In this document: positions 1 to 22,936 of the stretch, one piece after another
Layout of the letters: every line of letters begins with the position of its first letter
Position numbering within the stretch: the first letter of the stretch is position 1
Assembly: GCA_043771035.1 (NCBI GenBank)
Contig: JAYVHQ010000017.1
Coordinates: forward strand, 1-43,482
DNA: 43,482 nucleotides
From: Candidatus Kaiserbacteria bacterium
Lineage (GTDB): Bacteria; Patescibacteriota; Minisyncoccia; Phycocordibacterales; UBA918
Direction of reading: 5' to 3'
Position numbers and translations under genes: made by a program
Notes under the pieces: model-generated
The model's database searches: none
Told to the model about the DNA's origin: nothing
What the model saw: only the letters and a program-made list of their open reading frames with translations

Positions 1-935
1 TATAGTTTGATTGCAAAACTAAACATCCACAACAAACTTATAATAACTAAAAGAGCAATTACTATCTGTTTAAGCGGGATTATCCAAAAAAATACCGTAC
101 TGGTTACAAAATTTTTTTCATTTTCTCCGAAGCCTAACGTAGCTACCGCTTTAAACCTGCCGATATCATACAATGACGATTCACCAGTCCAGCTGAAATT
201 GAACTTACGAATACTGTTTGGTAAAACATTACCAAAATGTGTTTGATAATTTATCGGAATGATTCCCCTCTGCGCACCCCACATGTTGGTGATAGTGATA
301 TCTCCTTGTGGCTGAAGATGTACATTGCCCGTATTTTGAAAACGAATCTCAAACTCTACTTCTGGCTTAGGTACAATAGAATCTACAGTGGTAAACTCAC
401 GAATATTACCCACTTCTACAATATCACCAGATATTCGAACAAACAGCAAAGAAGTGACAAATTGGGCTGTTTGCACCTGAGGACTAGTGGCCGAAGTTTG
501 CGGTGGTTTTGTGCCAATTAAAATAGCGGCGTAATGACCCCCGGGAGCAGCCGTAGCTGAAACAGTGACCGAAAAAGGGATGCTCACTGTTTGTCCAGGC
601 GGTATGACAAAAGCGCTACCAGAAAGTGCCACCCATTCAGCTAAAGTTTGCCCCTTTGTTTCATCTGAAAATATAGGAACCATGGCTCCTTGACCATTCT
701 CACCTGACGGAGCGAAATTTACGACTTGGGGATAGACAGTAATTTCGTAATCGTTTACGTTTATAACACGAACTTCACTTGACCAAGACTGACTTGGATT
801 GGCAGACATTTGAAAGAGAGTTGGCGACACGCTCAAAGTTTGAGCCTGCATATCTTGAGCTCTCACTACAAGACCGTGTGTAAAAAGTACACACAACAAT
901 ACAAAGAAATAACTATTTTTTAAGATTGATATCAT
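1..935 (-). CDS. Surface-complex anchor-like protein, paralog 1 (3' end cut by the window edge). It has a signal peptide, two beta-sandwich-like domains and a C-terminal TM helix, an architecture like CscA (DUF916/DUF3324-type).
   Basis: The minus-strand frame is open from ATG 935..933 to position 3, with no stop before the window edge, so it is absent from the supplied track. I checked the frame by hand at three places (935, ~569-513, 32-3). The translation starts MISILKNSYFFVLLCVLFTHGLVVRAQD (signal peptide). It continues ...GQTVSIPFSVTVSATAAPGGHYAAILIG... and ...EFEIRFQNTGNVHLQPQGDITITN.... It ends in the hydrophobic helix IVIALLVIISLLWMFSFAI at the edge. The start overlaps the upstream gene end by 23 nt. 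Confidence 0.6.
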   Translation of the reverse strand, partial: MISILKNSYFFVLLCVLFTHGLVVRAQDMQAQTLSVSPTLFQMSANPSQSWSSEVRVINVNDYEITVYPQVVNFAPSGENGQGAMVPIFSDETKGQTLAEWVALSGSAFVIPPGQTVSIPFSVTVSATAAPGGHYAAILIGTKPPQTSATSPQVQTAQFVTSLLFVRISGDIVEVGNIREFTTVDSIVPKPEVEFEIRFQNTGNVHLQPQGDITITNMWGAQRGIIPINYQTHFGNVLPNSIRKFNFSWTGESSLYDIGRFKAVATLGFGENEKNFVTSTVFFWIIPLKQIVIALLVIISLLWMFSFAIKL

Positions 936-1890
936 GATCTTTTTCAATGCCGACAATTCCACTACGAACATACATGGACACATCCCCCTGATCGACTACA
1001 AGCTTGTTTCTTTTTTTATTATAGTATAAAGCTAACATAATCGAACCTAAGAGCATTATTACAAATGAAAGCAATAAATAAACCAAAGGTACTACATTAA
1101 AATAGGCAGTATCATATAAATTAGCTCGCTGGGTTGTGCCGTACTCAATATTGAGCAATGCCTTATGCCGACCAATAATACCTAAATAAGGAATAGTCTG
1201 CTCAAATTTTTCATTACTGCCAGACTTTATTTCTTTTCTTTCCGGATTAACGGGAATAGATGTAACCTCTACTCCACGAGCGTCATAAAAAATAATCTCA
1301 CCCAAAGGGACTATAGGAAGACCGCCAATATTTTCTAATTGGTACGAGACAGTGGCTATACGATCACTCGTGATAAAGCGATTGATATTAAAGAGATTTA
1401 ATCTTAGATATTCATTTCTTTTTTCTACAATTGATAACCGCACGACTACCCCGGGAGCTTGGCCTGAAATCACCAAGGCATCGACCTCGTCACGCTTTGA
1501 ACCCTCGGCAAAGCCTACAAACGCATAGTACTCGCCCGCTTCAGCACTAGGATTTATAGCGAATGAAACTGGTATTTTGATAGTTTCGTTGGGATTTATT
1601 TCCACCCGACCGCGGGTTACTGATATCCAACTAGTGACACTGGTTGAGTTATCACTCATCGAGGCTGGTACAAAAGACCGGACTTCCCCTTCATCACCAA
1701 CCGTAATAGCATTTACTGTAGGGAAAATACGTATTTTTCTATTCGACGTATTGGTTATTTTGACAGTTTCTTCGAAGATATCTCGCGGTTCAACAGTATT
1801 TTCAATAAGTAACGGTGTCACGGCGTATTCAGCAGCCGAAGCTACCTGTGTCATAACGGCAAACAATAAAAGAAAAAAGAAATATTTCAT
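913..1890 (-). CDS. Surface-complex anchor-like protein, paralog 2. It has a signal peptide, two beta-sandwich-like domains, a C-terminal TM helix and a basic tail (CscA/DUF916-DUF3324-like architecture).
   Basis: Track ORF 913..2232 is trimmed to the internal ATG at 1890, which gives MKYFFFLLLFAVMTQVASA/AEY, a clean signal peptide. This start lies 7 nt after the stop of 1898..8059, and the 114 upstream codons only overlap that gene. The C-terminus is VVPLVYLLLSFVIMLLGSIMLALYY followed by NKKRNK. The motifs VSFAINPSAEAGEYYAFVGF and QLENIGGLPIVPLGEIIFYD parallel paralogs 1 and 3. Confidence 0.75.
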   Translation of the reverse strand: MKYFFFLLLFAVMTQVASAAEYAVTPLLIENTVEPRDIFEETVKITNTSNRKIRIFPTVNAITVGDEGEVRSFVPASMSDNSTSVTSWISVTRGRVEINPNETIKIPVSFAINPSAEAGEYYAFVGFAEGSKRDEVDALVISGQAPGVVVRLSIVEKRNEYLRLNLFNINRFITSDRIATVSYQLENIGGLPIVPLGEIIFYDARGVEVTSIPVNPERKEIKSGSNEKFEQTIPYLGIIGRHKALLNIEYGTTQRANLYDTAYFNVVPLVYLLLSFVIMLLGSIMLALYYNKKRNKLVVDQGDVSMYVRSGIVGIEKDHDINLKK

Positions 1891-1897
1891 ACAGTAA

Positions 1898-4800
1898 TTA
1901 ATAGGTTGGGACAGCCAGGTAAACAATTTCTGTTTCATATATACCGGCAGGTTGCAGCGAACTGACACTGACTCTATACAGGATATCATGAACATCACTC
2001 GCGGGAAGAGAGCTGTACATGACTTCTTGTGGCGTAGTCTGCAAGCCAGCATAGCTGTCAAGTGGCGCAAAGCGTGTGGAACCCAAGCCCAAAGTAGCGT
2101 CAGTAGTATGATAACCAATACAACCCGTCGAACTAGCCACACATCCGAGAGCCCAGCTCGATGGCGCAAGATTTGTAGCTGCAATTGAAGGAATTGCGGT
2201 ACCGTAACTATTAAGCAACTGCTGCCGAGCATAACTTAACACCCGATACCCTTCGGTCGCATTAGTGTTAATTTGTATTCTGTGCGCTGAATACCAAGGA
2301 GTATCAAGAGGGATGAAGCCAAAATTAATCGCAGCTGGTGTTGAGGTGGCTGTTGTAACCACTCCAGCAGTAGTCGTTCCTGATGGCAAACCGGTAATGG
2401 TGAGAGATAATTTTGCTGTTTCAGAAACTAAACTAGGATTAACACTGCCGACTTTGAGCGGTACCTGGACTTCATTTAAGGTATCATATAACCTAAAGTA
2501 ATAAACGACTCCTACCCTAGCGATACCCTGTTTCAGATAAAAGGCATACTCTCGATTAGCACTCGGCAGATGGGTATCGCCCAGCGCAAATGTTCCTGAG
2601 GTATTATGAGTACCACAGCCAATACCAGCACTACTGGCACAGCTATTAGCATCAGACAACACTTTTGTGGTGATAGTGGCATTATCAAGTCCGCCACCAA
2701 GCGCGTAACACCAGGTAGAAGTGGCGACACAACTTGAGGTGGACGTTACATCTCGGGGATTGGTGAAGTTTGGATTTTCATCAAACTGCACTTTAAATTT
2801 GACATTCTGTCCCCGTACATTTTTTGCTTCACCGACCGTTACACGCAATGCCAGATTATTACCGTTTTGTATTTCTACTGGCGCATTGTTTTCTACAGCT
2901 AGTGGCCCGCTGGGTGTTTCGCTGGCAGAATCATCATACCAACGCCAATTTTGTGTTTGCGGAGTAAAACCAGCCGTTCTGATTTGCGGATAATTAAAGT
3001 AGCCATCAAGCGTAGTCCCGTCGGCTCTCACCATTTTAAAACAATAGACACTGCGCTCAAGGGCGCCGTTGTGTTCAAGTTGCCAGTCGAATTCAATTTC
3101 TTCGGTGGGATTGGCACCATAGGGGTTAGCGGGGGCGGGATTTTCTTCTACATAACTTCCCGCTCTGTCTGACACAGACAGTAACAAGTCCCCAAAAACC
3201 GGCGGGTTGGTTGAGAGAGGTACGCCGTTTGTTGTACCGGTAGCATTATAGCCGCGCCAAACTGCTGCTCCGCCAGCAGCACCGACGTCGGTCCACGGCG
3301 AGACCGCGGTACAGGAAGTAACGCGTAGACCATACTGTAATTTAAAATCATACAACCCAGCCGGCAGGTTGGCATTTGTTACTCTCAGTGACATGCGCAG
3401 ACGCACCCGGTCGGCTTCGCCGAGCGGCTGATCGGTAATTGATAAAGGCGTATTTTCACCTAGATTACTTACTCCTGGCGGCCAGGGATCAGTTGGTAAG
3501 AGAGAATTATTATCAGCGTATATTCGATAATAATTTTGTCGGACAGCTAAACCGTTAATTGGCCACTCGACAATTTCTGTGCGGTACGTGAGCAAAGCAG
3601 TTGATGCTTCACTCCTCCATACAACATAGGACGAAGTAGATGTGATACTCAGTCCGGTCATCGCTAACGGAAAGTTGGAGTTTGCACCAACAACTCGTGC
3701 TGTCCCCCAAATTGAGGCATTGGTGACGGTTTCCAGTGGCGAGAAAATCGGTACGGCCAAGACGACTGGTTCAGTGCCGTCAGTGGTATTTCCATTACTT
3801 CTTTGCACCTTCATTGCGCCAGCACTGGTTTGCTGATTCTCAATCACCCAAGCTACTGAAGTGTGTGAAGCCGGAGTAGTTGCGGCATCTTCTAATTTAA
3901 ACGACAACGACCCGATACTCGAGAGCCAGACTTCGTGTCCAAAGTTATTGACGTTACCAAGGGCATTGATTCTTTTTTGGGTATGAATAAAGGTTCGCGC
4001 CAAACTGTTTACGGGTGAAATAGATTCTGTTTCAATGACGGTACTTGAGGAATAGGTATGTTCTACCCGCTCTATGTTCCAGTTGATCCCGGTGTACTCT
4101 ACCACTGCGTAACTAACATCGATTATCGCTCCACCAGCACCGCGCTCTAAAAATGGGCGACTGGTAGAACTAATCCACTGCGAAGTGACTGCTCCAGCAT
4201 AGTAAAAGTTACGACCGGCATCTCGATTAGCTATTCCGGTAATAAACACTACTACATCAGCATTATCTGAGACTCCAGGCACGATAAACCCGGTCGAAGA
4301 AGTCGCGATGCTCGCCAAAGAAGTAGTAGCCACTGACAGAACCTTCATCTCATTGTCAGTCCCCGCTTCGGCGATAAACTCAATAATTTCCCAGTAAACT
4401 TGCGTGTTGTTAATAGGTGATGGTGGTCGAGCAATAGTAAAGCTCGTTGCTAAATTGCCAGGATTAGAAATATAAGCAGTCACATCTTTAGCATTTTGTG
4501 CCCCGCCAAGGGTATTTTTACCAGCCCCAGTTATTTGCGTATTCGTAATACGGACAAAGGCGCGCGTCGAGGATGCAGGAGCTACATAGTCTACTCCGGC
4601 AGTGAGTGTCAAGCCGGTCCCTGTGACATTTGACGTACCCCGTTGTATTTTAAAATCACGTTTTGGAGCAGTTTTTATTTCTGCATAATTATCATACTGA
4701 CCAAGTTCAGTACTGGCGTCAGTTACCCGGAAACAATAAATAGTATTGTTGGCAGTAATCCCCGTGGAAGTGATACTGTACTCCAACTCAGTAAAACCCG

Positions 4801-7800
4801 TCTGTGATAATGTGATGCTGCTAGTTAGATCAGACGTGTCTTTAATTCCAGCATTGGCTGACAAAAATGTAACATTGCCATCGATCACTCCACCACTACT
4901 GGTGGCAATATTTGTCGTATTATTTCCGTCGGTGAGATTGGCTGTATTAAACATATTCCAGTCATCATTTGCAGCACCAACGCTCGTCCACACACTAACC
5001 GCACTACAAGAAGTAATTTTTGGCCCATACTCGAGTTGATACTGTACAGCCGATGAAGTGGCTGAGCCTTCATTACTAATACCAATCCGTAACCTGATTG
5101 TGGAGCCGGCTCCATGTTCAGTGAGAAGCGTATTGACACTTCCGCCGGTAGCAGAAGAGGCTGTTGTTTCACTGCCGTTATCAGTCCGCCAATGATAACC
5201 AGTTTGGGCCAAAATTGCGCCTGATAACGTAGTCGTACCTGAAAGCAACACTGGTGTAGTCGGACCAACTGCGCCACTAGAAATAGTGACGTCATTACCT
5301 CCGTTACTAATTTCGATTTCGATTGTTTCGCCATTAGTAGCACCGCTCACGATATCAAACACTACATACACACACATCGCTTGAGTGGTAGTTATCGCTA
5401 CAGAACCAGAAAACGTCGAGCTTCCATTAATATCAGAAAAGCCATCGGTATCTGTTGCCCCAAATTGAAGTTCTGATCCAGCATATGATTCACTGACACA
5501 GTTGTAAGGTGCAGTGGTATCGAGGTCATACCGTAGTTTTATATTATCCAAACTACTCGTGGCATTAACCGTACCAGTTTCGGTGACGGTAATAGCTGTC
5601 ACGTTTCGGGAGCTAACATTTTCTGTGAACGAAAAAGATCCACCGATCATCAGATTTGTTGAGGGAATAACGGCCGAAGAAACTTGCGTCCCCGTTGTAC
5701 CAAGTGTTACATCTGCTGAGACCGTCACCGCTGCATATTGACTATATACAGGCAGAGGTGTGCCAGCGTTTGTTACTCTAAAACAATAGGTGGTTCCCTG
5801 TGAAGCTGATGATGAGGCTACGATAGAGTATTCGATTTCAGTAAAGTTTGTTGTAGCTAAAATCAGTCCTCCAGTCTGTGAAGTGGTATCCAATTGTCCA
5901 CCATTTGGCGTTAAAAAAGTTGTATTTTCATTTACCATTCCCCCGCTTCCCACCGTAATATCAGTTGTATTAGTGCCATTTATGACAAAACTTGAATCAG
6001 ACATACCCCACGCGTCATTCACGGCATTTACATCGGTCCAGCCAGTAGCTACTTCACATGTAGGCGCAGCTTCTGCATATTCCAACCTAAATTGCGTAAC
6101 TGGACTTGAAAGCGTTCCTTCGTTTGAAACTTGTACTCTTAAACGACGGGGTGTGTTTTGGAGTAACGCTGGTAATGGGGTGTCAGCGGTACCGAGGGTG
6201 GCTGAGGTAGCAGCCGTTTCGTTGCCGTTATCATTGCGCCAATGGTAGTGAGTCTGGGTTAAGGTATCGTTATTAATCACTGTCCCAGAGAGAAATGCTA
6301 CGGCAGTTGCAGGAGTAACTACTCCCCCACCTGAAACCAAAATGTCGACTGCGGGATTATTAACATACATTCGTAATGTAGAAGAACTTAAAGCTGAGTC
6401 TAATACATCAACCACGGTATACACACACATTGCCCGAACTGGACTAATATTTACCAAGCCATTGAAAGAAGAAACTCCATCACTACCACTAAAACCATTT
6501 ATATCAGTTGAACCAAATTGAGCTTCTAAACCAGAGTAGGATTCACTGACACAGTCATACGGCGTAGTGGTATCAATATCATACAAAACTTTTATATTTT
6601 TTATGGCGTTACTGGCGTCCACTGTGCCATTTTCTGAAATAGTAATATCTGTCACGTTACGGCTAACCTGATTTTCTTTTAGTAATATTGTGCCTCCAGT
6701 ATAAACATTAGTGGAACTCGCCGACACAGACGCAGTTGGGGTACCTAAAGTAGAAGCTTTTGTAACCGGCGCAATATCGGCTACGGTATTTCCAAAAATT
6801 TCGTCAGGATTAGTCCCGGGGTCTTCCCATGACGCATAAATACGTTCGTCACTCATGATGTTCATATCAAGACCATACATATCGGCAGTCACGGTATTAA
6901 CCGGTCCTCTCTCGGCACTCCAGGCAGACATGGCGCTCGTTGAGGTAGCGTAATAGACATTACCAGTAGTAGCAGTAGCGGGGGTTGTACGCAAAACGTA
7001 CGCTACGTACACCTCGCCTAGATTTACATCTAGGGATATAGCAACTCCATGTAAGCCTCTGGTTGTATTTGTAAATACATTTGCTGTTGCTGACCATGAA
7101 CCACTCACGTATTTTGCCGTTCTCACATCGTGGTCAAGTACCGTATAGTTATCATTATCAGCCGCATAGGCTAAATAGATATCTCCCGTTATCTGATCTT
7201 GTGTCAAAGCCATACCAACATCATAGGTAGCGCTGTGAACAGCGTTACTATCAACCGCTAACCAGCTACCAGACCAAGCTGTTCCATTCCAGACTTTTGA
7301 TCGAATATCAAAAGCAGAAATATCACGATTTACCAAAAGCATGTCACCTCCTAAAAGCGGCATTAAGATACTCCAGTCATTGGCCGCCTCAGTGTATGGC
7401 GTCGTAATTTCACCCCAACCACCAGTTGTATTACAGCTACTACTACACCTGACTACAAATGAATCCGAGACGGCAGGCGAAGTCATATAAAGCACGCCGT
7501 CAGTACCTTTAGAGATTGACTGTTCATTTGTTCCCGCGACATACACAGGAACTTGGCCGGAATTTACGATAGTACTGATGGGTGCCGACCCCAGTAACCT
7601 GGTATCACTAGTTGTATCGAGCCTGTTATACCAAAGATCGTCATTACCAACATCCATAGTTGAGATGTGAATGTTGGTTCCAGAGTCCCCGGGCGTCCAA
7701 CCGTCATACCACACAGCAATGCTGGTACAGTCAGTTTGAGCATCAACAATAACGGCGGCACTCCACGCATTACCACCGTTGGTAGTTTTACTATAGGAAC

Positions 7801-8059
7801 ATTCTCCACCACCATCTACAAAAAATTTATACCCGACTTGATCAGATATAAACACTGTCTGTGAACCAGCAAATAAATGCTCAGTAGCAGTAGTACTAAC
7901 AGCTCCGTCAATAGTGACTACCGCAGCTTCGGCGACTTTTGGCACTAAGAATTCTAAAAAAGTTAATTGCGTTGCCACAATTACAAAAATAAGTCCGGCC
8001 GTAATAATACGCTGTCTAAAGTTACAACTAAAAAACGAAGGATACCTCCCCATGGTCAT
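1898..8059 (-). CDS. Giant (2,053 aa) secreted surface protein. It has an N-terminal signal anchor, a BNR/Asp-box-like beta-propeller, a 2 x 350-codon tandem repeat, a unique ~370-aa region, further YxW/YCFR-type beta-sandwich modules and a C-terminal pilin/WxL-like domain.
   Basis: The ORF is uninterrupted for 6.2 kb. The N-terminus IITAGLIFVIVATQLTFLEFLVPKVAEAA/VV looks like a signal peptide or anchor. The composition is Thr/Ser/Gly/Asn-rich and poor in charged residues, typical of extracellular beta-rich proteins. There is no LPXTG and no C-terminal TM. Confidence 0.9.
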   Translation of the reverse strand: MTMGRYPSFFSCNFRQRIITAGLIFVIVATQLTFLEFLVPKVAEAAVVTIDGAVSTTATEHLFAGSQTVFISDQVGYKFFVDGGGECSYSKTTNGGNAWSAAVIVDAQTDCTSIAVWYDGWTPGDSGTNIHISTMDVGNDDLWYNRLDTTSDTRLLGSAPISTIVNSGQVPVYVAGTNEQSISKGTDGVLYMTSPAVSDSFVVRCSSSCNTTGGWGEITTPYTEAANDWSILMPLLGGDMLLVNRDISAFDIRSKVWNGTAWSGSWLAVDSNAVHSATYDVGMALTQDQITGDIYLAYAADNDNYTVLDHDVRTAKYVSGSWSATANVFTNTTRGLHGVAISLDVNLGEVYVAYVLRTTPATATTGNVYYATSTSAMSAWSAERGPVNTVTADMYGLDMNIMSDERIYASWEDPGTNPDEIFGNTVADIAPVTKASTLGTPTASVSASSTNVYTGGTILLKENQVSRNVTDITISENGTVDASNAIKNIKVLYDIDTTTPYDCVSESYSGLEAQFGSTDINGFSGSDGVSSFNGLVNISPVRAMCVYTVVDVLDSALSSSTLRMYVNNPAVDILVSGGGVVTPATAVAFLSGTVINNDTLTQTHYHWRNDNGNETAATSATLGTADTPLPALLQNTPRRLRVQVSNEGTLSSPVTQFRLEYAEAAPTCEVATGWTDVNAVNDAWGMSDSSFVINGTNTTDITVGSGGMVNENTTFLTPNGGQLDTTSQTGGLILATTNFTEIEYSIVASSSASQGTTYCFRVTNAGTPLPVYSQYAAVTVSADVTLGTTGTQVSSAVIPSTNLMIGGSFSFTENVSSRNVTAITVTETGTVNATSSLDNIKLRYDLDTTAPYNCVSESYAGSELQFGATDTDGFSDINGSSTFSGSVAITTTQAMCVYVVFDIVSGATNGETIEIEISNGGNDVTISSGAVGPTTPVLLSGTTTLSGAILAQTGYHWRTDNGSETTASSATGGSVNTLLTEHGAGSTIRLRIGISNEGSATSSAVQYQLEYGPKITSCSAVSVWTSVGAANDDWNMFNTANLTDGNNTTNIATSSGGVIDGNVTFLSANAGIKDTSDLTSSITLSQTGFTELEYSITSTGITANNTIYCFRVTDASTELGQYDNYAEIKTAPKRDFKIQRGTSNVTGTGLTLTAGVDYVAPASSTRAFVRITNTQITGAGKNTLGGAQNAKDVTAYISNPGNLATSFTIARPPSPINNTQVYWEIIEFIAEAGTDNEMKVLSVATTSLASIATSSTGFIVPGVSDNADVVVFITGIANRDAGRNFYYAGAVTSQWISSTSRPFLERGAGGAIIDVSYAVVEYTGINWNIERVEHTYSSSTVIETESISPVNSLARTFIHTQKRINALGNVNNFGHEVWLSSIGSLSFKLEDAATTPASHTSVAWVIENQQTSAGAMKVQRSNGNTTDGTEPVVLAVPIFSPLETVTNASIWGTARVVGANSNFPLAMTGLSITSTSSYVVWRSEASTALLTYRTEIVEWPINGLAVRQNYYRIYADNNSLLPTDPWPPGVSNLGENTPLSITDQPLGEADRVRLRMSLRVTNANLPAGLYDFKLQYGLRVTSCTAVSPWTDVGAAGGAAVWRGYNATGTTNGVPLSTNPPVFGDLLLSVSDRAGSYVEENPAPANPYGANPTEEIEFDWQLEHNGALERSVYCFKMVRADGTTLDGYFNYPQIRTAGFTPQTQNWRWYDDSASETPSGPLAVENNAPVEIQNGNNLALRVTVGEAKNVRGQNVKFKVQFDENPNFTNPRDVTSTSSCVATSTWCYALGGGLDNATITTKVLSDANSCASSAGIGCGTHNTSGTFALGDTHLPSANREYAFYLKQGIARVGVVYYFRLYDTLNEVQVPLKVGSVNPSLVSETAKLSLTITGLPSGTTTAGVVTTATSTPAAINFGFIPLDTPWYSAHRIQINTNATEGYRVLSYARQQLLNSYGTAIPSIAATNLAPSSWALGCVASSTGCIGYHTTDATLGLGSTRFAPLDSYAGLQTTPQEVMYSSLPASDVHDILYRVSVSSLQPAGIYETEIVYLAVPTY
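1901..2415 (-). other. C-terminal class-1 module (pilin/WxL-like beta-sandwich) of the 2,053-aa protein.
   Basis: The segment LSLTITGLPSGTT..AAINFGFIPLD..HRIQINTNATEGYRVLSYARQQL...LQPAGIYETEIVYLAVPTY aligns motif for motif with the C-terminus of the 383-aa protein (14106..14670): FTFTVAGLPGGTD..TAIPFGQLVAD..QRLSVSTNASYGFAVTVQVDQQL...LQEAGNDYTATLTYVATPVF. Confidence 0.5.
4660..6770 (-). repeat. Tandem duplication of a ~1.05-kb (350-codon) unit inside the 2,053-aa gene.
   Basis: Homologous landmarks HYHWRNDNG (Y codon at 6247) and GYHWRTDNG (Y codon at 5197) are exactly 1,050 nt apart. The flanking peptides are collinear: NVTDITISENGTVDASNAIKNIKVLYDIDTTTPYDCVSESYSG versus NVTAITVTETGTVNATSSLDNIKLRYDLDTTAPYNCVSESYAG. 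Both units end in YCFRVT. Confidence 0.85.
6770..7925 (-). other. BNR/sialidase-like beta-propeller region (N-terminal domain of the 2,053-aa protein).
   Basis: There is an Asp-box-like KTTNGGNAWS (compare S-x-D-x-G-x-T-W). Blade-like motifs recur: VWNGTAWSGSW, YVSGSWSATANV and AMSAWSAERG. Confidence 0.4.
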
Positions 8060-9765: not shown

Positions 9766-10524
9766 TTATTTTGTAAAGTAATCTGAAAGTAAAATAGAAA
9801 AATCCCGGAACGTCATTTGCCCATCATTATTAAAATCAAATTTTTGCTGGCGACTGGTCCAGTTGGCCATAAAAGAACTAATATCACGCAGTGATACCTC
9901 ACCATCGCCATCTATGTCCGTCACCACAGCAAAACCTACACTCCCCTCCAAAGTAGTGCCATCAGCTGGTTTTGCACCCAAAGCAAACACCTGAGTAGTA
10001 ATTTTCGCTCGCGATATATCGGCGTTGATAGCAGTACCTTTCCCATCTCCCGCTAAAAGCTTTACCTCACCGGCAAAAAATTGTGCGCTACCAGCTGTTT
10101 TAGCCTTAACATTAATCGTAGCAATTTTATGCTCACCCACAAATCCTCTTTTAAAAGTACCACCACGCAAAATAACTTTATCGTTACTCACAAAGGGCTC
10201 TTCTGTCCACAAGGTAATTACCGAATTACCTTTATCGATACCTAAAACTTCGACCTGACCTAAAGGATAGGCCAAACTGATGTCAACAGCGTTCACGGGA
10301 GCATCAGCAAAGACAAATACATCAAGTGAAAATGTCGAACCAATTTCAACATTAGTCTCACTAGACACTACTTTTATATAGGACCCCTTCGTACCAGAGA
10401 CGGCCGCAATGCTCGCAATCGCCGCAAAGACAAACAAAAAAGAAAAGGCATAGCGAACAGTCGGAGAGTTTTTTAAGCCCAGAGTTGGAAAAACTTTGAT
10501 TAAAGCTCTCCGTACTAAACTCAT
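9766..10524 (-). CDS. Secreted or anchored protein with a cohesin-like domain and a C-terminal type-I-dockerin-like module.
   Basis: The N-terminal hydrophobic segment is YAFSFLFVFAAIASIAAVSG. The cohesin-like core (about 10014..10389) reads VEIGSTFSLDVFVFADAPVNAVDISLAYPLGQVEVLGIDKGNSVITLW...KIATINVKAKTAGSAQFF..LLAGDGKGT. The dockerin-like duplicated Ca-loop (9769..9927) reads DIDGDGEVSLRDISSFMANW ... DFNNDGQMTFRDFSILLSDY. The ATGA start/stop overlap with 10521..11198 indicates translational coupling. Confidence 0.8.
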   Translation of the reverse strand: MSLVRRALIKVFPTLGLKNSPTVRYAFSFLFVFAAIASIAAVSGTKGSYIKVVSSETNVEIGSTFSLDVFVFADAPVNAVDISLAYPLGQVEVLGIDKGNSVITLWTEEPFVSNDKVILRGGTFKRGFVGEHKIATINVKAKTAGSAQFFAGEVKLLAGDGKGTAINADISRAKITTQVFALGAKPADGTTLEGSVGFAVVTDIDGDGEVSLRDISSFMANWTSRQQKFDFNNDGQMTFRDFSILLSDYFTK

Positions 10525-11206: not shown

Positions 11207-12958
11207 TTATTTTTTAAAGACAGTAGTAACATCATGCACCTCTTTTCCTACTCGATTTTTTGCTTCAGCAATCACTGCTCTTAGCTCTGAGAATAATTCG
11301 GTTTCAAATTTACTCAATTTGTTAGTTTTATGTGAAGCCACACATTTTGCTTCTTGAGCTTTCAGGACCTGTTCCAGATGGTAAAACTCTGCCTCTAACA
11401 TCAGCTCAGCTTCATTAGATTCTACTATAACTCGTTTACGCAAGCGACCCATTTTTTGGATTGAATACAAAAGTGTCAACCATGTCAATACACACAAAGC
11501 AATCAAAGGAATAAGCACCGAGAGGAAACTAATGAGAAATGTACCAACCGCTACATAGCCTGGCTTTGATACAGTAATAGTTACGGTATCTGAAGGTTCA
11601 CTTTGGGCACCAAAGGTATCGGTAGCAGTGACACTCAAGGTATACCGTCCGACAACAAACGACTCAGCTGGTATTAATGAAAACGCACCACTGCCGTCAG
11701 CTGTTGCGCTCAGAGTCTGCTCTACTCCAGCTGGTGAAGTGAGTAAACCAACTACCGTAGCATTTGGTTTGGTGGTACCTAAAAAGGCAGGTATAACACC
11801 AACATTGAGAGTTGCTGGAAATTGTGTAATAAGTGGCTTTTCAAAAGAGGTAATGGTAAACGAGAGTGTGGCTATAAGTGAATTCATCGCCGCATCAAAC
11901 CCTTCAATCACCACTGTATGATAACCAGGAGCAAGCGAGGGCAAGATAAGGTTTGCTGGTGTATTAGTTGCGCTGTATTCATAAGGTACGGCTCCATCAA
12001 TCTGTACTTTAAAAAGCTTTACACTCGAGGTTTTATCTACAGTATTAAGAGAAACAGTTTGATTTGGATTTGAAAAGTCAGCATTATCTGCCAGTTTAAT
12101 TTCAAACGACTCAGGTTTTTGTGAATCAATGGCAATTTTATAATGTTTGATTTTACCCCAACCATCAGCATTTTTAAACTGAACATGGAGATAAGACACT
12201 CCCTCAGGCACATCTGAAATAGATAGTGTTTTAATTGGACTGTCGTAGACTTTGGTGGGAATGGCTATCGGACTGGTATCAAGACCGGTTCGTACGGCTA
12301 CTACACCAGCTGGCACCGTCCAGTTAAAGACCGCATTTTTTTCCTTTGACCACTTTGCTTCGTCAGGGTGGGAATTTGAGGTAATTTGTGGCGCTGCTGG
12401 TGTATTGGCTGGCGCAACGAATTCCACTATTACCTCAGGTGCTGGCTGGGATTCCACCACTGATAGAGTGTAGGTTCCGCCGCTCATATTTGTGAGAACA
12501 TTAGTCCCCTTTCCATCAGCAGCCAAAACAGAGGCCCCCGTTAGTGAAATCCGGGCAGCACCTGAAGTAAGTGATTTGAAGGTAACGGTAAACACAGCCC
12601 CCGCAGTACCGGTATAGCCAGTAGGAACTCCACCACTAAATGTCACCGTACCGGCTGAGTTTGAAAACGTTGGCTCGGTAGTCCATAAACTAAAAATAGA
12701 TGAGCTCCGAGAGGCGGCCACGACCGATAGTTCACGAGGATTAAACGACAGTGTTCCGTCAGCGGCATTAACAGGAACTCCAGAGGTGTTGACATACACG
12801 GTGACTGAAAAAGTCGCGCCTGTTTTATAGACTCCCGTACTCGGTGATACAAGCAACGTAGCCGCACTTGCAAAATAAGGCGTTACCAAAAAGAGCGCCC
12901 CAAACAGGATAGCTACGACTGTAGTATGTTTTAGTGTTCGCACTTTTGTTATTAGCAT
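11207..12958 (-). CDS. Membrane-anchored cohesin-like scaffold protein. It has a signal peptide, a cohesin-like domain, Ig-like domains, a TM helix and a cytoplasmic coiled-coil tail.
   Basis: The signal peptide is VVAILFGALFLVTPYFASA/ATL. The cohesin-like core (about 12463..12862) reads LLVSPSTGVYKTGATFSVTVYVNTSGVPVNAADGTLSFNPRELSVV...SIFSLWTTEP...GAVFTVTFKSLTSGAARISL..VLAADGKGT. The TM helix is VAVGTFLISFLSVLIPLIALCVLTWLTLLY. A charged helical tail follows. Confidence 0.8.
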   Translation of the reverse strand: MLITKVRTLKHTTVVAILFGALFLVTPYFASAATLLVSPSTGVYKTGATFSVTVYVNTSGVPVNAADGTLSFNPRELSVVAASRSSSIFSLWTTEPTFSNSAGTVTFSGGVPTGYTGTAGAVFTVTFKSLTSGAARISLTGASVLAADGKGTNVLTNMSGGTYTLSVVESQPAPEVIVEFVAPANTPAAPQITSNSHPDEAKWSKEKNAVFNWTVPAGVVAVRTGLDTSPIAIPTKVYDSPIKTLSISDVPEGVSYLHVQFKNADGWGKIKHYKIAIDSQKPESFEIKLADNADFSNPNQTVSLNTVDKTSSVKLFKVQIDGAVPYEYSATNTPANLILPSLAPGYHTVVIEGFDAAMNSLIATLSFTITSFEKPLITQFPATLNVGVIPAFLGTTKPNATVVGLLTSPAGVEQTLSATADGSGAFSLIPAESFVVGRYTLSVTATDTFGAQSEPSDTVTITVSKPGYVAVGTFLISFLSVLIPLIALCVLTWLTLLYSIQKMGRLRKRVIVESNEAELMLEAEFYHLEQVLKAQEAKCVASHKTNKLSKFETELFSELRAVIAEAKNRVGKEVHDVTTVFKK

Positions 12959-12967
12959 AGGAAATGA

Positions 12968-13972
12968 TTAAAGGACTATATCGTCACTGGCCGGTGAAAC
13001 AAACTTTTTTTGCGCTCGTCTTTTCCGCACTTGCCAAATCACCAATAGAACAACAATGAACAAAGTTGCACCCAGAGCCAGTAGCACCAATAGCTCGGTA
13101 CTGAGAACAAATTTTTGGTGAGCGGTATCGATAGGTAGGGTGACAATATATTCATTACCAGCTTTATCAATGGCACGCACCCGGACTACACTATTACGAC
13201 TTTGGTCTTTGAGTAAATGTGGGCTTTTAGTTTTTACCCAAGGTGCATTGGCTGCTCCAAAGTTAAATAATTTAGACTGTTTATAACTCTCTTCAATCAC
13301 TTCATAATGGCTAATGCCTGTCTGTTTATCAGTAGTGTTAAAGACTACGTACCATTGATTATTTATAGATTCTATGCTGGCACTAAAGTCCTCAGGTGGC
13401 AGTTCGTCAGACTGCACATCAGTACTCCACGGATCTAAAATTTCGGCTCCTACTGTATCAGCCAGAGTAAAATTAGCACCAAACTTTTGTAGATTTGCTT
13501 GCGTACCTTTACCGTCATTTAGATACGCTGTTGTGGCATCAGTAAATTGTACAGTGGCGGCGCTACGGGCCTCCCCACCACCCACCTGCATACCGGGTGC
13601 CCTAAAGAAAATTTCAACTAACGTATTAGTGAGATTGGGGTCACCTTGCACCCGTCCACAATAGCCATTAGGGATGCCTCCGGCGAAACTTATAGTCCGA
13701 TTTTCTTTATTAATAACGGGTGCCTCTACCCAAATTGGAAAGATAGATTTACCAACGGTAATGTCGACAGGAATAATACTCTCACTATAGGAAACAACCG
13801 CGTCCACGGCATTAATACACTCACCTGCTGCCTCATCAGTATCTAATCTAATCGAAATTTTAGTAGCGTCGCCACGATTTAGACTGGCTGTGTTTGGGTC
13901 CATGTACAAAGTGGCAGCCGAAACTGTCTGCACCGAAAATAGCAAAAAAAGAATCCCGAGAAAATACCTCAT
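12968..13972 (-). CDS. Membrane-anchored cohesin-like protein with a signal peptide, a cohesin-like domain, a second beta domain and a C-terminal TM plus basic tail.
   Basis: Track ORF 12968..14029 is trimmed to ATG 13972, giving MRYFLGILFLLFSVQTVSA/ATLYMDP. The 19 upstream codons overlap the terminator hairpin of the preceding gene. The cohesin-like core (about 13460..13915) reads ATKISIRLDTDEAAGECINAVDAVVSYSESIIPVDITVGKSIFPIW...LVEIFFRAPG...YLNDGKGT. The TM is LLVLLALGATLFIVVLLVIW followed by QVRKRRAQKK. Confidence 0.75.
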   Translation of the reverse strand: MRYFLGILFLLFSVQTVSAATLYMDPNTASLNRGDATKISIRLDTDEAAGECINAVDAVVSYSESIIPVDITVGKSIFPIWVEAPVINKENRTISFAGGIPNGYCGRVQGDPNLTNTLVEIFFRAPGMQVGGGEARSAATVQFTDATTAYLNDGKGTQANLQKFGANFTLADTVGAEILDPWSTDVQSDELPPEDFSASIESINNQWYVVFNTTDKQTGISHYEVIEESYKQSKLFNFGAANAPWVKTKSPHLLKDQSRNSVVRVRAIDKAGNEYIVTLPIDTAHQKFVLSTELLVLLALGATLFIVVLLVIWQVRKRRAQKKFVSPASDDIVL

Positions 13973-14020
13973 AGTGATTATAGTATAGCTCAAAGTAAAG
14001 TACCTAAGGCCAGCTTGTAC

Positions 14021-14059
14021 ACAAAGCAAAAACCCTACTCGTGGTGGGAGATAGGGTTT
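14021..14059 (-). terminator. Rho-independent terminator of the 383-aa gene.
   Basis: The minus strand reads AAACCCTATCTCC-CACCAC-GAGTAGGGTTT followed by TTGCTTTGT. The stem is 8+3 bp (30-37 pairing with 52-59, and 38-40 with 48-50) with a 1-nt bulge. It lies 44 nt after the stop at 14103. Confidence 0.6.
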
Positions 14060-14102
14060 ATTGCATTGTACTCCAAGCTTGGATCCACTATTCTAAATTA
14101 AT

Positions 14103-16974: not shown

Positions 16975-17099
16975 TAAAACTTTATAAAATTAGTGCAATT
17001 CGAGGCAGGCAAGGAAAATCTTGCGAGCCGTACTTATTGTACGGTGAGTAAGATTTTACCGCAGCCTAACGAAGAAGTGTGCAATTTTATAAAGTTTTA
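16975..17099 (+). repeat. E-element copy E1, a 125-bp unit with 17-bp perfect terminal inverted repeats and a conserved internal hairpin. It is either MITE-like or a structured RNA.
   Basis: The ends read TAAAACTTTATAAAATT ... AATTTTATAAAGTTTTA. The internal part reads GCAAGGAAAATCTTGCGAGCCGTAC-TTATT-GTACGGTGAGTAAGATTTTACCGCAGC. The right end supplies part of the TAA stop (17097-17099) of the dockerin gene. Confidence 0.75.
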
Positions 17100-22676: not shown

Positions 22677-22747
22677 TTGTTACATTATGACACGTACACA
22701 ACACGTAACTAAGGACAACTCACAGTTTAATTGAAAAGGTAAGTGAT

Positions 22748-22902
22748 ATTGAAAACGAGTGTAGTTGGTGGTGAGAGGAGTTACTAAATGTCACGCAACC
22801 TTGCGGACAGCGACTTGAGTCAGACACTCCGGTTGAGCTAGCTCACTCTTAGAGCGAACGTTCCATCGATTGGCTCTAGGAAAGAGCAAATCGGGAACAA
22901 AG
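22748..22902 (+). repeat. Degenerate E-element-like copy (E3) in the ATPase/permease spacer.
   Basis: ATTGAAAACGAGTGTAG (22748-22764) resembles the E left-end motif CAGAAACGAGTG. CTCTAGGAAAGAGCAAATCGGGAACAAAG (22874-22902) resembles CCTAGGGAAGAAAAAATCGGGACAGAAAT of E4b. The similarity is weaker than for the other copies. Confidence 0.35.
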
Positions 22903-22936
22903 CATAAACATACAACCTTGCGGTTGTTGTTATGCT
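22901..22936 (-). terminator. Hairpin with a GCAA tetraloop overlapping the ATPase stop codon. It may be an intra-operon attenuator or stabiliser.
   Basis: The minus strand reads AGCATAA-CA-ACAACC-GCAA-GGTTGT-ATGT-TTATGCT, followed by TTGTTCCCGATTTGC. That is two 6-bp helices with an internal loop. The U-tract is weak. Confidence 0.3.

What the first reader, a model, noticed from the sequence alone, without database searches (positions are those of the whole stretch)
1901..2415. Class-1 C-terminal module shared by the 2,053-aa giant and the 383-aa protein, with a WxL/pilin-like motif pattern
The last ~170-190 aa of both proteins (1901..2415 and 14106..14670) align motif by motif:
- (L/F)T(I/V)(T/A)GLP(S/G)GT
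- AI(N/P)FG
- (H/Q)R(I/L)x(I/V)xTNAxxG(Y/F)xV
- QQL
- LQxAGxY...(I/L)xYxAxP(T/V)(Y/F)-end

The order is the order of conserved features in WxL cell-wall-binding domains, with Trp replaced by Tyr/Phe. That order is an FG strand, then a V-x-T/D-N/R-x-x-G-aromatic-x-V/L strand, then a terminal G-x-Y-x-x-x-L-x-aromatic...P strand. SCPU-type pilin folds show a similar pattern, so the assignment is ambiguous. Both proteins also share the signal-peptide end AEAA.
Basis: partly seen in the sequence, partly recalled or inferred. Interest (0 to 1): 0.7.

Follow-up and report, generated by a model that had tools for sequence, protein, structure and literature searches.

The report
Pilin-type C-terminal domain, CPR pilus
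The ~185-residue tail shared by a 2,053-aa giant and a 383-aa secreted protein is real, and is most likely the subunit-joining domain of a recently described type of pilus in ultrasmall (CPR) bacteria, with the small protein as shaft and the giant as tip adhesin.

Summary
The two C-termini align over about 185-200 residues (32% identity, BLASTP E 3e-17, Smith-Waterman z = 23 against shuffles), and every listed motif is present.

The module is not a detectable WxL or SCPU family member. Neither copy hits any Pfam model even at E<=10, while genuine WxL proteins score 1e-42 to 1e-71.

The only consistent family match is NCBIfam NF058581, "CPR_Pam_pilin_C". The match is below the curated cut-off but covers the whole profile. 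It recurs in 74 of 112 diverse relatives.

AlphaFold models give a nine-strand N-domain, a conserved hydrophobic linker and a beta C-domain. The nearest PDB folds to the C-domain are chaperone-usher pilin domains.

Seven bases downstream of the giant lies a 325-aa protein with a signal peptide, two beta domains and a transmembrane helix. It is homologous to Firmicute WxL-interacting proteins (HHalign 87-97%). It also has the build of the membrane-anchored Pam chaperones.

Gene order is conserved in dozens of Parcubacteria-group genomes.

Best reading: a divergent Pam-type donor-strand pilus, with the 383-aa protein as shaft pilin and the giant as tip adhesin. The WxL idea survives only as a possible distant relationship between the two systems.

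The parts
1901..2410 (-). C-terminal domain (CTD) core of the giant, residues 1884-2053. Pam-pilin-type truncated-Ig-like domain that ends at the protein's last residue (...VPTY).
   Evidence: BLASTP to the small protein. NF058581 E 4e-6 over profile 4-148/148. AlphaFold pLDDT 89, pTM 0.78. Foldseek hits to chaperone-usher pilin domains.
2411..2455 (-). Linker-like segment of the giant, residues 1869-1883 (KVGSVNPSLVSETAK). It aligns with the pilin linker. It is conserved as P-S-L-V-x-E in giant-type proteins and is less hydrophobic than the small-type linker.
   Evidence: Alignments A1 and A3. Per-type consensus and hydropathy, 0.55 against 1.20.
1898..8059 (-). Giant 2053-aa secreted protein: signal peptide (residues 1-46, ending AEAA), about 1,820 residues of repeated beta-rich modules, then linker and CTD. 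Proposed tip adhesin.
   Evidence: Translation. Orthologues of 2034-2035 aa with the same C-terminus in other genomes. Giants of 1000-2470 aa with a terminal CTD.
14106..14660 (-). CTD of the 383-aa protein, residues 199-383.
   Evidence: Conservation is higher than in the N-domain.
14661..14699 (-). Linker of the 383-aa protein, residues 186-198 (APVVVTAAVDTSF region). It carries alternating conserved hydrophobic residues V189, V191, A193 and V195. Proposed donor strand.
   Evidence: Most conserved stretch together with the CTD: mean top-residue frequency 0.62 against 0.37 for the N-domain. Lower pLDDT and no strand in the monomer model. The Pam paper describes the linker as the donated strand.
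14700..15083 (-). N-terminal beta-sandwich domain of the 383-aa protein, residues 58-185. Nine strands in the model, and an invariant Cys108/Cys128 pair.
   Evidence: AlphaFold/DSSP. Invariant columns. Pam pilins have a nine-strand N-domain.
14103..15254 (-). The 383-aa secreted protein as a whole. Proposed major (shaft) pilin.
   Evidence: 1845 homologues, 62-87% identical among the best 120, of near-constant length. All named ones are Patescibacteria. 165 matches in species-representative genomes.
913..1890 (-). 325-aa protein with a signal peptide, two beta domains, a C-terminal TM helix (residues ~261-291) and a short cytoplasmic tail. Its start codon lies 7 nt after the giant's stop. Proposed membrane-anchored chaperone or assembly factor (WxLIP-like, with the PamC/D build).
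   Evidence: Translation and hydropathy. Profile against PDB: best hit EfmWxLIP1, E 0.017. Pfam WxLIP_PGBD in 26 of 40 relatives. HHalign against WxLIPs: 97.2% for the full alignments, 87.2% after trimming, reversed control 0.1%. Adjacency to genes that carry the CTD in other loci.
14026..14064 (-). Hairpin followed by a U-run directly after the 383-aa gene. Possible intrinsic terminator or attenuator.
   Evidence: MFE -16.7 kcal/mol, z -3.35. Sequence. The pattern scan missed it; I attribute that to its internal bulge and mismatch.

Best explanation
The shared module is the C-terminal, truncated-Ig-like 'acceptor' domain of a Pam-type pilus subunit. The Pam pilus is the donor-strand-exchange pilus described in 2026 for the CPR bacterium Ca. 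Mycosynbacter amalyticus.

Proposed roles:
- The 383-aa protein is the polymerising shaft pilin. It has a Sec signal peptide, a nine-strand N-domain, a conserved hydrophobic linker and the C-domain. The linker of one subunit is proposed to insert as the missing strand into the open C-domain of the neighbouring subunit.
- The 2,053-aa giant carries the same acceptor domain at its very C-terminus, behind about 1,820 residues of adhesin-like modules. It would therefore sit at the distal end as a tip adhesin, accepting the linker of the first shaft subunit. This is analogous to FimH/PapG (adhesin domain plus pilin domain) and to the CTD-only tip subunit PamT.
- The 325-aa membrane-anchored two-domain protein encoded 7 nt downstream of the giant would hold and prime the C-domains at the membrane until strand exchange, as proposed for PamC/PamD.

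Shown here: the homology of the two modules; the terminal position in nearly all of the 150 best relatives; the remote but reproducible match to the Pam pilin CTD model; the pilin-like fold; the domain architecture; the conservation pattern; and conserved gene linkage with the WxLIP-like protein.

Inferred, not shown: polymerisation, the polarity of the filament, the tip role of the giant, and chaperone function.
For: 1. Module homology.

2. NF058581 (CPR_Pam_pilin_C) is the only NCBIfam or Pfam family that matches consistently. Giant CTD: 27 bits, E 4e-6, full profile length. Small protein: E 6e-4. 74 of 112 diverse relatives match, best 1.5e-10. The giant CTD and both pilins of the paralogous locus L058 match as well.

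3. The small-protein model (pLDDT 83.4) has nine N-domain strands, an unstructured linker and a beta C-domain. This is the published PamA/PamB architecture.

4. The giant CTD model (pLDDT 89) retrieves FimA/F/G, the PapGII pilin domain (2wmp_B, 3me0_B), CsuA/B, the CupB6 tip adhesin, CS20, Caf1 and TasA. Foldseek probabilities are 0.9-0.99 for the top-ranked hits and fall to about 0.45-0.75 lower in the list.

5. The linker and C-domain are the most conserved parts, with alternating conserved hydrophobic residues in the linker. The Pam paper reports the same pattern.

6. In nearly all of the 150 best relatives the module ends at the last residue or within one of it, in small (~345-400 aa) and giant (1000-2470 aa) proteins.

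7. The 325-aa protein has the PamC/D build: signal peptide, two beta domains and a C-terminal TM helix.

8. Gene linkage:
- Giant followed by the 325-aa homologue with a 5-7 nt gap, here and in two other genomes.
- A pilin paralogue immediately followed by a homologue of the 325-aa protein in about 14 paralogous loci.
- Giant(CTD)-chaperone-chaperone-pilin-pilin in L058 and L059.
- The whole cluster order is conserved in dozens of species-level genomes.

9. All named homologues are Patescibacteria.
Against: - Both window proteins score far below the curated NF058581 cut-off (27 and 19.9 bits against 55). For the small protein only the first ~45 profile positions align in the best stretch.
- Foldseek E-values are weak (2e-3 to 5e-2) and TM-scores modest (0.3-0.5).
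- No PamA-D sequence or structure was available for direct comparison. The PDB copy contains no matching chain.
- The 325-aa protein gives no sequence match to PapD/FimC families. Its only detectable relatives are WxLIPs, whose published role is anchoring or stabilising, not polymerisation.
- The giant also has a conserved linker-like segment, so a purely terminal role is not proven.
- The major-pilin gene and the chaperone gene are separated by six genes. This is unlike the compact operon in L058.
Confidence: 0.65

Rival explanations
1. WxL-type surface anchoring without polymerisation. The module is a very divergent WxL-like domain. Each protein, small and giant, is displayed singly on the cell surface. 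It is held by strand insertion from the membrane-anchored WxLIP-like 325-aa protein, by binding to the cell wall, or by both, as proposed for Firmicute WxL clusters.
For: - The cluster logic is the same as in WxL clusters: a small protein, a large protein with the shared C-terminal domain, and a two-Ig-domain TM protein.
- The 325-aa family is homologous to WxLIP: HHalign 97.2% and 87.2%, WxLIP_PGBD in 26 of 40 relatives, best PDB hit EfmWxLIP1.
- Co-linear motif similarity to WxL domains: HHalign P 0.0075, above all seven controls. An ad hoc WxL HMM gives E 1e-4 to 1e-3 for five of these C-terminal domains, against 4.8 bits for reversed sequences.
Against: - No Pfam WxL hit at E<=10 for either module, with strong positive controls.
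- WxL is not among the 25 families listed for 112 relatives.
- Both Trp residues of the WxL motifs are absent.
- HHalign probability is only 5%.
- WxL proteins do not hit the Pam model, whereas this family does.
- The small protein has an extra conserved N-domain and a conserved hydrophobic linker. A simple anchor would not need them.
- Peptidoglycan binding of WxL-type domains has not been tested for CPR walls.
Confidence: 0.2
2. The 383-aa protein is a surface-layer or sheath protein. The shared C-domain is a lattice-insertion or anchoring domain that also plugs the giant adhesin into the layer.
For: - The small protein is very strongly conserved and of constant length in many genomes, as expected for an abundant structural protein.
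- It lies in a large conserved cluster of surface proteins that includes cohesin/dockerin proteins.
Against: - The specific match is to the Pam pilin CTD model, and the fold is CU-pilin-like.
- The two-domain-plus-linker architecture is identical to that of filament-forming PamA/B.
- There is no similarity to known S-layer families.
Confidence: 0.08
3. The module is a C-terminal secretion or sorting signal domain. It would be recognised by a dedicated exporter, for example the MacB/FtsX-type ABC pair in the cluster, and removed or used for attachment.
For: - Position at or within one residue of the C-terminus in nearly all of the 150 best relatives.
- A conserved ABC/FtsX pair in the same cluster.
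Against: - Both proteins have ordinary Sec signal peptides.
- The domain is large (~185 aa) and pilin-like.
- The compact paralogous loci contain pilins and the 325-aa homologue without the ABC pair next to them.
Confidence: 0.04

Closest known systems
Pam pili of Candidatus Mycosynbacter amalyticus (PamA/PamB shaft pilins, PamT tip, PamC/PamD membrane-anchored chaperones); Troman et al., bioRxiv 10.64898/2026.03.03.709456; NCBIfam NF058581
   Same: - CPR-restricted and Sec-secreted.
- Pilin built from a nine-strand N-domain, a conserved linker and a truncated-Ig-like C-domain.
- The C-domain matches the family model over its full length.
- The tip-type subunit carries the acceptor domain.
- Two-beta-domain proteins with a C-terminal TM helix are encoded alongside.
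- The linker and C-domain are the most conserved parts.
   Different: - Scores are below the curated cut-off, so this is a divergent branch.
- The host lineage is the Parcubacteria group (Kaiser-/Nomurabacteria by record titles), not Saccharimonadia or Microgenomatia.
- The acceptor domain is fused to a 2,053-aa giant instead of being a single-domain PamT.
- The shaft-pilin gene and the chaperone gene are six genes apart, within a 43-kb conserved cluster.
- No direct comparison with PamA-D sequences or structures was possible.
WxL clusters of Firmicutes (small WxL protein, large protein with a C-terminal WxL domain, WxLIP = DUF916 + DUF3324 + TM helix); Hassan et al. 2023, PMC10599100
   Same: - Same three-part logic.
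- The 325-aa protein is a remote homologue of WxLIP.
- Co-linear FG / (T/D)N..G-aromatic-x-(L/V) / Y..TLT-aromatic motifs.
- AlphaFold predicts that a WxLIP strand inserts into the WxL domain, which is a strand-complementation principle.
   Different: - No Pfam WxL match.
- The Trp of both motifs is replaced.
- The small protein here has an additional N-domain and a hydrophobic linker.
- There is no small LPXTG protein and no sortase in the window.
- WxL domains are described as peptidoglycan binders, not as pilus subunits.
Chaperone-usher pili (FimA/FimH, PapA/PapG, and archaic Csu pili of the SCPU family)
   Same: - The incomplete Ig-like pilin fold is the best structural match.
- Two-domain tip adhesins carry a C-terminal pilin domain.
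- There is an aromatic residue at the extreme C-terminus.
   Different: - No usher, no outer membrane and no soluble periplasmic PapD-type chaperone.
- The donor strand is an internal linker rather than an N-terminal extension.
- No sequence-level family match to PapD_N, Fimbrial or SCPU.
TasA fibres and archaeal bundling pili or threads (chaperone-free donor-strand filaments)
   Same: Donor-strand-based beta-sandwich filaments of organisms that lack an outer membrane. TasA (8aur) appears among the fold hits.
   Different: No sequence match. Those systems have no dedicated two-domain membrane-anchored partner.

Membership tests
Pam pilus pilin (NCBIfam NF058581 CPR_Pam_pilin_C; Troman et al. 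2026) | Score at or above the curated cut-off of the family model (55 bits) | tested here: not met
   27 bits (giant CTD) and 19.9 bits (small protein). The E-values of 4e-6 and 6e-4 are significant but below threshold. 74 of 112 relatives hit at E<=0.01, best 1.5e-10.
Pam pilus pilin (NCBIfam NF058581 CPR_Pam_pilin_C; Troman et al. 2026) | [quoted passage not shown] | tested here: met
   The AlphaFold model of the 383-aa protein (pLDDT 83.4) has nine strands in residues 58-185, a linker at 186-198 and a beta C-domain at 199-381. Compared with the description.
Pam pilus pilin (NCBIfam NF058581 CPR_Pam_pilin_C; Troman et al. 2026) | C-domain fold resembling chaperone-usher pilin domains | tested here: met
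   Foldseek against the PDB: the top hits are FimA/F/G, the PapGII pilin domain, CsuA/B, CupB6 and Caf1. Probabilities are 0.9-0.99 for the top-ranked hits and lower further down, and TM-scores are modest (0.3-0.5).
Pam pilus pilin (NCBIfam NF058581 CPR_Pam_pilin_C; Troman et al. 2026) | Encoded with PapD/FimC-like chaperones that carry a C-terminal TM helix | tested here: inconclusive
   A 325-aa protein with signal peptide, two beta domains and a TM helix lies 7 nt downstream of the giant and is syntenic with genes that carry the CTD. It is homologous to WxLIP.
Pam pilus pilin (NCBIfam NF058581 CPR_Pam_pilin_C; Troman et al. 2026) | Polymerisation by donor-strand exchange into a filament | not testable with these tools
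   Only indirect support: a conserved linker with alternating hydrophobic residues.
Pam pilus pilin (NCBIfam NF058581 CPR_Pam_pilin_C; Troman et al. 2026) | Restricted to CPR/Patescibacteria | tested here: met
   Nearly all source names and record titles of homologues are Patescibacteria-group taxa. The exceptions are unclassified labels and L081 (Candidatus Azotimanducaceae).
WxL domain (Pfam PF13731) | Match to the Pfam WxL model | tested here: not met
   No Pfam hit for either module at E<=10. Genuine WxL proteins score 2e-71 and 1e-42 in the same call. WxL is not among the 25 families listed for 112 relatives.
WxL domain (Pfam PF13731) | Two Trp-x-Leu motifs | tested here: not met
   The corresponding positions read G-F-A-V / G-Y-R-V and T-Y-V-A / V-Y-L-A. 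The motifs are present in the Firmicute controls.
WxL domain (Pfam PF13731) | Profile-profile similarity to WxL domains | tested here: inconclusive
   HHalign probability 5%, P 0.0075, score 22.9 against 11.9-18.7 for seven controls. The motifs align co-linearly. The ad hoc WxL HMM gives a best score of 16 bits (E 1e-4 among 141 sequences), against 4.8 bits for reversed sequences.
WxL domain (Pfam PF13731) | Cluster containing a WxLIP (DUF916-DUF3324-TM) protein and at least two proteins with the domain | tested here: met
   Met at the level of remote homology only.
WxL domain (Pfam PF13731) | Non-covalent peptidoglycan binding | not testable with these tools
   Needs a binding assay.
SCPU / archaic chaperone-usher pilin (Pfam PF05229) | Match to the Pfam model | tested here: not met
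SCPU / archaic chaperone-usher pilin (Pfam PF05229) | Usher and soluble periplasmic chaperone in the operon | tested here: not met
   The Pfam and NCBIfam scans gave no usher or PapD family hit. The Pfam scans covered all window ORFs of 190 aa or more except the 5,743-aa giant, of which only the C-terminal 499 residues were scanned, against NCBIfam.
SCPU / archaic chaperone-usher pilin (Pfam PF05229) | Fold similarity to CsuA/B | tested here: inconclusive
   7zl4_B: E 4e-3, probability 0.97, TM 0.34/0.42. This is no better than the hits to classical CU pilins.

The most novel reading that the evidence does not exclude
Firmicute WxL clusters and CPR Pam-type pili may be two branches of one ancient chaperone-assisted strand-complementation system of bacteria that lack an outer membrane. 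In this reading the WxL domain and the Pam pilin C-domain descend from the same acceptor domain. WxLIP (DUF916-DUF3324-TM) and the membrane-anchored Pam chaperones would be the same assembly or anchor factor.

This Parcubacteria-group locus would be an intermediate form. It has a Pam-like C-domain with the WxL motif order, a WxLIP-like partner, and a giant adhesin as tip subunit. Part of what is annotated as 'WxL cell-wall binding' might then really be strand-exchange assembly.
Probability: 0.3. Interest if true: 0.75.

Novelty: new variant of a known kind. Interest (0 to 1): 0.6.

Why it matters
The Parcubacteria group is one of the largest blocks of uncultivated bacteria, and how its members attach to hosts is largely unknown. 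This locus would extend the newly described Pam pilus beyond Saccharimonadia and Microgenomatia. The extension is a large family: 1100 clusters at 50% identity, all of which fall below the curated annotation threshold and would be left as 'hypothetical protein'.

It would also assign a role to one class of the enigmatic giant CPR surface proteins, as tip adhesins plugged into a pilus through a pilin domain. That gives concrete targets (C-domain, linker, 325-aa partner) for structure prediction, cryo-EM and host-range studies.

The homology of the partner protein to WxLIP additionally suggests a testable evolutionary link to the WxL adhesion clusters of enterococci, listeriae and lactobacilli.

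Tried and rejected
- Chance or compositional similarity: rejected (z = 23).
- Sequence searches of both modules and of a 112-member profile against PDB chains: nothing.
- Foldseek with the whole small-protein model: only generic two-Ig-domain adhesins with TM about 0.2, because of domain orientation.
- Pfam family assignment: none for WxL or SCPU. The sporadic hits (BslA, DUF7490) occur in at most 3 of 112 members.
- WxL proteins against the Pam model: no hit.
- Literature searches for 'Pam pilus' as a phrase failed. The paper was found through 'PamA/PamB'.
- No paper in the library links WxL to donor-strand pili or Parcubacteria to chaperone-usher pili.
- The consensus terminator scan missed the hairpin after the pilin gene. 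Folding found it.
- The ORF finder's 439-aa ORF 913..2232 overlapping the giant was rejected in favour of the start at 1890 (signal peptide MKYFFF...).
Full report
**1. The observation**

The window carries a run of minus-strand genes for secreted proteins. The giant is 1898..8059 (2053 aa) and the small protein is 14103..15254 (383 aa).

BLASTP aligns giant residues 1869-2053 with small-protein residues 182-383 at 32% identity, E 3e-17. The Smith-Waterman score is 208, against 39.8 +/- 7.3 for 1000 shuffles (z = 23). The score is at most 50 against other equally long pieces of the same giant. Composition therefore cannot explain the match.

No other protein of the window has the module.

**2. 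The family**

The 383-aa protein has 1845 homologues. The best 120 are 62-87% identical and 380-385 aa long for the most part. All named ones come from Patescibacteria / Parcubacteria / Paceibacteria.

A profile of the two modules, searched against 1.84 billion representative proteins, finds 1100 clusters at E<=1e-3. In nearly all of the 150 best the match runs to the last residue or to within one of it. Most of those proteins are about 345-400 aa, and giants of 1000-2470 aa form a smaller class. The giant's own C-terminus retrieves mostly contig-end fragments of orthologous giants.

**3. What the module is**

Pfam gives nothing for either protein. It gives nothing even at E<=10 for the isolated modules, although genuine WxL proteins fetched as controls score 2e-71 and 1e-42 in the same call. 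Among 112 diverse relatives no Pfam family is hit by more than three members, and neither WxL nor SCPU is among the 25 families listed.

NCBIfam gives one hit, NF058581 'CPR_Pam_pilin_C, Pam pilus system pilin subunit':
- Giant CTD: 27 bits, E 4e-6, over profile positions 4-148 of 148.
- Small protein: 19.9 bits, E 6e-4.
- Both are below the 55-bit cut-off.
- The same model is hit by 74 of 112 relatives (best 1.5e-10), and by no other family consistently.
- It is also hit by the giant CTD and two pilins of a paralogous locus.

The model derives from Troman et al. 2026 (bioRxiv 10.64898/2026.03.03.709456, found and read). That work reports:
- Cryo-EM structures of PamA/PamB filaments of Ca. Mycosynbacter amalyticus.
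- Pilins made of a nine-strand N-domain, a single linker strand and an open, truncated-Ig-like C-domain that accepts the linker of the neighbouring subunit.
- A CTD-only tip subunit, PamT.
- PapD/FimC-like chaperones PamC and PamD that carry a C-terminal TM helix.
- No usher.

**4. Structure**

The AlphaFold model of the 383-aa protein has pLDDT 83.4. It shows nine strands in residues 58-185, a lower-confidence unstructured linker at 186-198, and a beta C-domain at 199-381. This is the published Pam pilin architecture.

The whole-protein Foldseek search gave only generic two-Ig-domain adhesins with low TM-scores.

The model of the giant's last 200 residues has pLDDT 89 and pTM 0.78. It retrieves mainly chaperone-usher pilin domains: FimA/F/G, the PapGII pilin domain (2wmp_B, 3me0_B), archaic CsuA/B (7zl4), the CupB6 tip adhesin, CS20 and Caf1. 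It also retrieves the TasA fibre. Unrelated glycoside hydrolases account for about a fifth of the 50 rows. Foldseek probabilities are 0.9-0.99 for the top-ranked hits and lower further down. E-values are weak (2e-3 to 5e-2) and TM-scores are 0.3-0.5. The fold-level statement 'pilin-like' is supported; membership of a CU family is not.

Across 112 relatives, the linker and the C-domain are more conserved than the N-domain (mean top-residue frequency 0.62 and 0.56 against 0.37). V189, V191, A193 and V195 are conserved in alternation, as expected for a buried strand face. The Pam paper reports the same pattern.

The giant's equivalent segment is conserved as P-S-L-V-x-E and is less hydrophobic (0.55 against 1.20). 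This fits a terminal, non-donating subunit but does not prove it.

**5. The partner protein**

The ORF finder lists a 439-aa ORF, 913..2232, that overlaps the giant. The real gene starts at 1890 (MKYFFF..., a signal peptide), 7 nt after the giant's stop. It encodes 325 aa: a signal peptide, two beta domains, a TM helix and a short tail. This is the build described for PamC/PamD.

Evidence that it is related to WxL-interacting protein (WxLIP):
- The best PDB hit of its family profile is EfmWxLIP1 (9i25_C, 9i1y_A; E 0.017).
- Pfam WxLIP_PGBD (DUF916) is hit by 26 of 40 relatives, best 1.1e-5, all below the cut-off.
- I fetched six Firmicute WxL loci from plasmids and ran HHalign locally. The 325-aa family against the WxLIPs gives 97.2% probability (E 4e-11, 250 columns).
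- After removing the signal peptide and the TM helix plus tail, it gives 87.2% (E 3.9e-6, 219 columns across both domains).
- The reversed control gives 0.1%.

WxLIP is the conserved partner of WxL proteins. Hassan et al. 2023 (PMC10599100) describe clusters of a small WxL protein, a large protein with a C-terminal WxL domain, and a WxLIP. AlphaFold predicts that a WxLIP strand inserts into the WxL domain. The cluster logic here is the same.

**6. Direct WxL test**

HHalign of 141 C-domains against an alignment of 14 WxL domains gives 5% probability, P 0.0075 and a score of 22.9. Seven negative controls (reversed alignments, N-domain, WxLIP, chaperone) score 11.9-18.7.

With a lower alignment threshold the alignment becomes co-linear:
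- i.FG with dFG
- L.VtTNA..Gf.Vtv with v.v.D.Rgt..gWtl.v
- DYt.tLtY..TP with sY..titW.L

An ad hoc WxL HMM scores five of these C-terminal domains at E 1e-4 to 1e-3 among 141 sequences, again with co-linear alignments. Reversed sequences reach 4.8 bits at most. WxL proteins do not hit NF058581.

My reading: the module is not a WxL family member by any accepted threshold, and both tryptophans are missing. Together with the WxLIP-like partner, it makes a distant relationship between the two systems plausible.

**7. Genomic context**

Exact copies of the small protein lie on metagenome contigs with the same gene order.

In 80 species-representative genomes the order of the whole cluster is conserved in most loci. 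Most record titles name Kaiserbacteria, Nomurabacteria, Parcubacteria or Paceibacteria(ota). One TPA series is labelled 'uncultured Candidatus Saccharibacteria'. A few titles are unclassified or odd (for example L081, Candidatus Azotimanducaceae). These titles are submitter labels. The order is:
giant-2 C-terminus, FN3 protein, ABC, FtsX, 631-aa, 321-aa, 371-aa, PILIN, 353-aa, 583-aa, 225-aa, 252-aa, 502-aa, giant.

Additional linkage:
- In two genomes where the region downstream of the giant was fetched, the 2035/2034-aa giant is followed after 5-6 nt by the 325/328-aa protein.
- The giants keep the ...VP(T/V)(Y/F) end and are 47-91% identical along their whole length.
- A second, compact type of locus occurs, in several cases in a genome that also carries the main cluster. 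In it a pilin paralogue is directly followed by a homologue of the 325-aa protein.
- L058 and L059 read giant(CTD)-chaperone-chaperone-pilin-pilin.

The linkage between proteins that carry the C-domain and the WxLIP-like protein therefore holds in two different gene arrangements.

NCBI taxonomy places Kaiserbacteria in the Parcubacteria group and M. amalyticus in Saccharimonadota. The Pam paper reports its pilins mainly in Saccharimonadia and Microgenomatia.

A stable hairpin with a U-run follows the pilin gene (-16.7 kcal/mol, z -3.35). This is compatible with a highly expressed major subunit, but it is weak evidence.

**8. Mechanism proposed**

- Both proteins are exported by Sec.
- The membrane-anchored 325-aa protein caps the open C-domain.
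- The giant (adhesin modules plus acceptor domain) starts the fibre.
- The linker of a 383-aa subunit displaces the chaperone strand and completes the giant's C-domain.
- Further 383-aa subunits add in the same way at the membrane-proximal end.

Shown: module homology, terminal position, the Pam-model match, the fold, the architecture, the conservation pattern and synteny.

Inferred: strand exchange, polarity, the tip role and chaperone function.

Not identified: the membrane anchor (the PamR analogue). The TM-anchored 353-aa and 583-aa proteins that follow the pilin gene are candidates only.

**9. Rivals**

- A WxL-type, non-polymerising anchor held by the WxLIP-like protein (0.2).
- A surface-layer role (0.08).
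- A C-terminal sorting domain (0.04).

The evidence for and against each is given in the corresponding fields.

**10. Novelty and score**

The kind of system has been known since 2026. This is a divergent branch in another CPR class, below the curated annotation threshold. Its acceptor domain is fused to a giant adhesin, and its partner is demonstrably WxLIP-like.

No paper in the searched library links WxL clusters with donor-strand pili or Parcubacteria with such pili.

I rate it a new variant of a known kind, interest 0.6.

Noticed in passing
window 19272..21167 (-), 26207..43438 (-), 18214..19179 (-): There is a second trio of the same design. The 631-aa protein and the 5,743-aa giant share a ~260-aa C-terminal module (29% identity, E 5e-14; ends ...FWGIAVPA.. 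/ ..YWGVAVPA..). A 321-aa protein with signal peptide, two beta domains and a TM helix lies just downstream of the 631-aa gene. That protein is distantly similar to the 325-aa protein (E 2e-4). The class-2 module has no Pfam or NCBIfam match. It is possibly a second, unrecognised strand-exchange system.
   Followed up: partly
window 12968..14029, 11207..12958, 9766..10524, 17097..18212 (all -): By eye, the 353-, 583- and 252-aa proteins share an N-terminal domain right after the signal peptide. I took it for cohesin-like, but the similarity was not tested. The 583-aa orthologue in L091 has a Pfam Cohesin hit. The 252- and 371-aa proteins end in dockerin modules. The 353- and 583-aa proteins have C-terminal TM helices. 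These genes sit between the pilin and giant genes, and their order is conserved in dozens of genomes. They are candidate membrane anchors or scaffolds.
   Followed up: partly
window 15105..15125 (-), residues 44-50 of the 383-aa protein: The motif S-D-T-L-S-D-S, just after the signal-peptide cleavage site, is nearly invariant across the family. It lies in a segment that AlphaFold leaves disordered (pLDDT 39-52). Its role is unexplained. It could be a second donated strand, a processing site or a glycosylation site.
   Followed up: partly
window 14026..14064 (-): A hairpin (-16.7 kcal/mol, z -3.35) followed by UUUUU lies between the pilin gene and the next gene. It is a possible attenuating terminator. 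The consensus scan missed it.
   Followed up: yes
L058 36..11113 and L059 (same layout): Compact paralogous loci in other genomes read giant with CTD, then a 338-aa and a 561-aa chaperone-like protein, then two pilins of 379 and 383 aa. Further downstream, after a 404-aa ORF, come two ~275-aa proteins with weak matches to formylglycine-generating-enzyme-type domains.
   Followed up: partly
L090 10956..12608, L091 10962..12602 (downstream of the 325-aa gene; beyond the window's start): In other genomes the gene after the 325-aa protein encodes a ~550-aa protein with a LytR_C domain. The window ends before that gene.
   Followed up: no
window 21468..24252 (-): A MacB/FtsX-type permease and an ABC ATPase with a 200-aa C-terminal extension are conserved inside the surface-protein cluster.
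   Followed up: no
window ~4700..6700 (-), giant residues ~455-780 and ~795-1110: The giant contains a tandem duplication of a ~330-aa unit (for example ...ENQVSRNVTDITISENGTVDASNAIKNIKVLYDIDTTTPYDCVSESYSG... and ...ENVSSRNVTAITVTETGTVNATSSLDNIKLRYDLDTTAPYNCVSESYAG...). It also has several Y-H-W-R-x-D-N-G modules. No Pfam family matches.
   Followed up: no
PDB entries 9i25 and 9i1y (EfmWxLIP1): Solved structures of an Enterococcus faecium WxL-interacting protein exist in the PDB copy. No describing paper was found in the searched library. They would be the natural template for the 325-aa protein.
   Followed up: no
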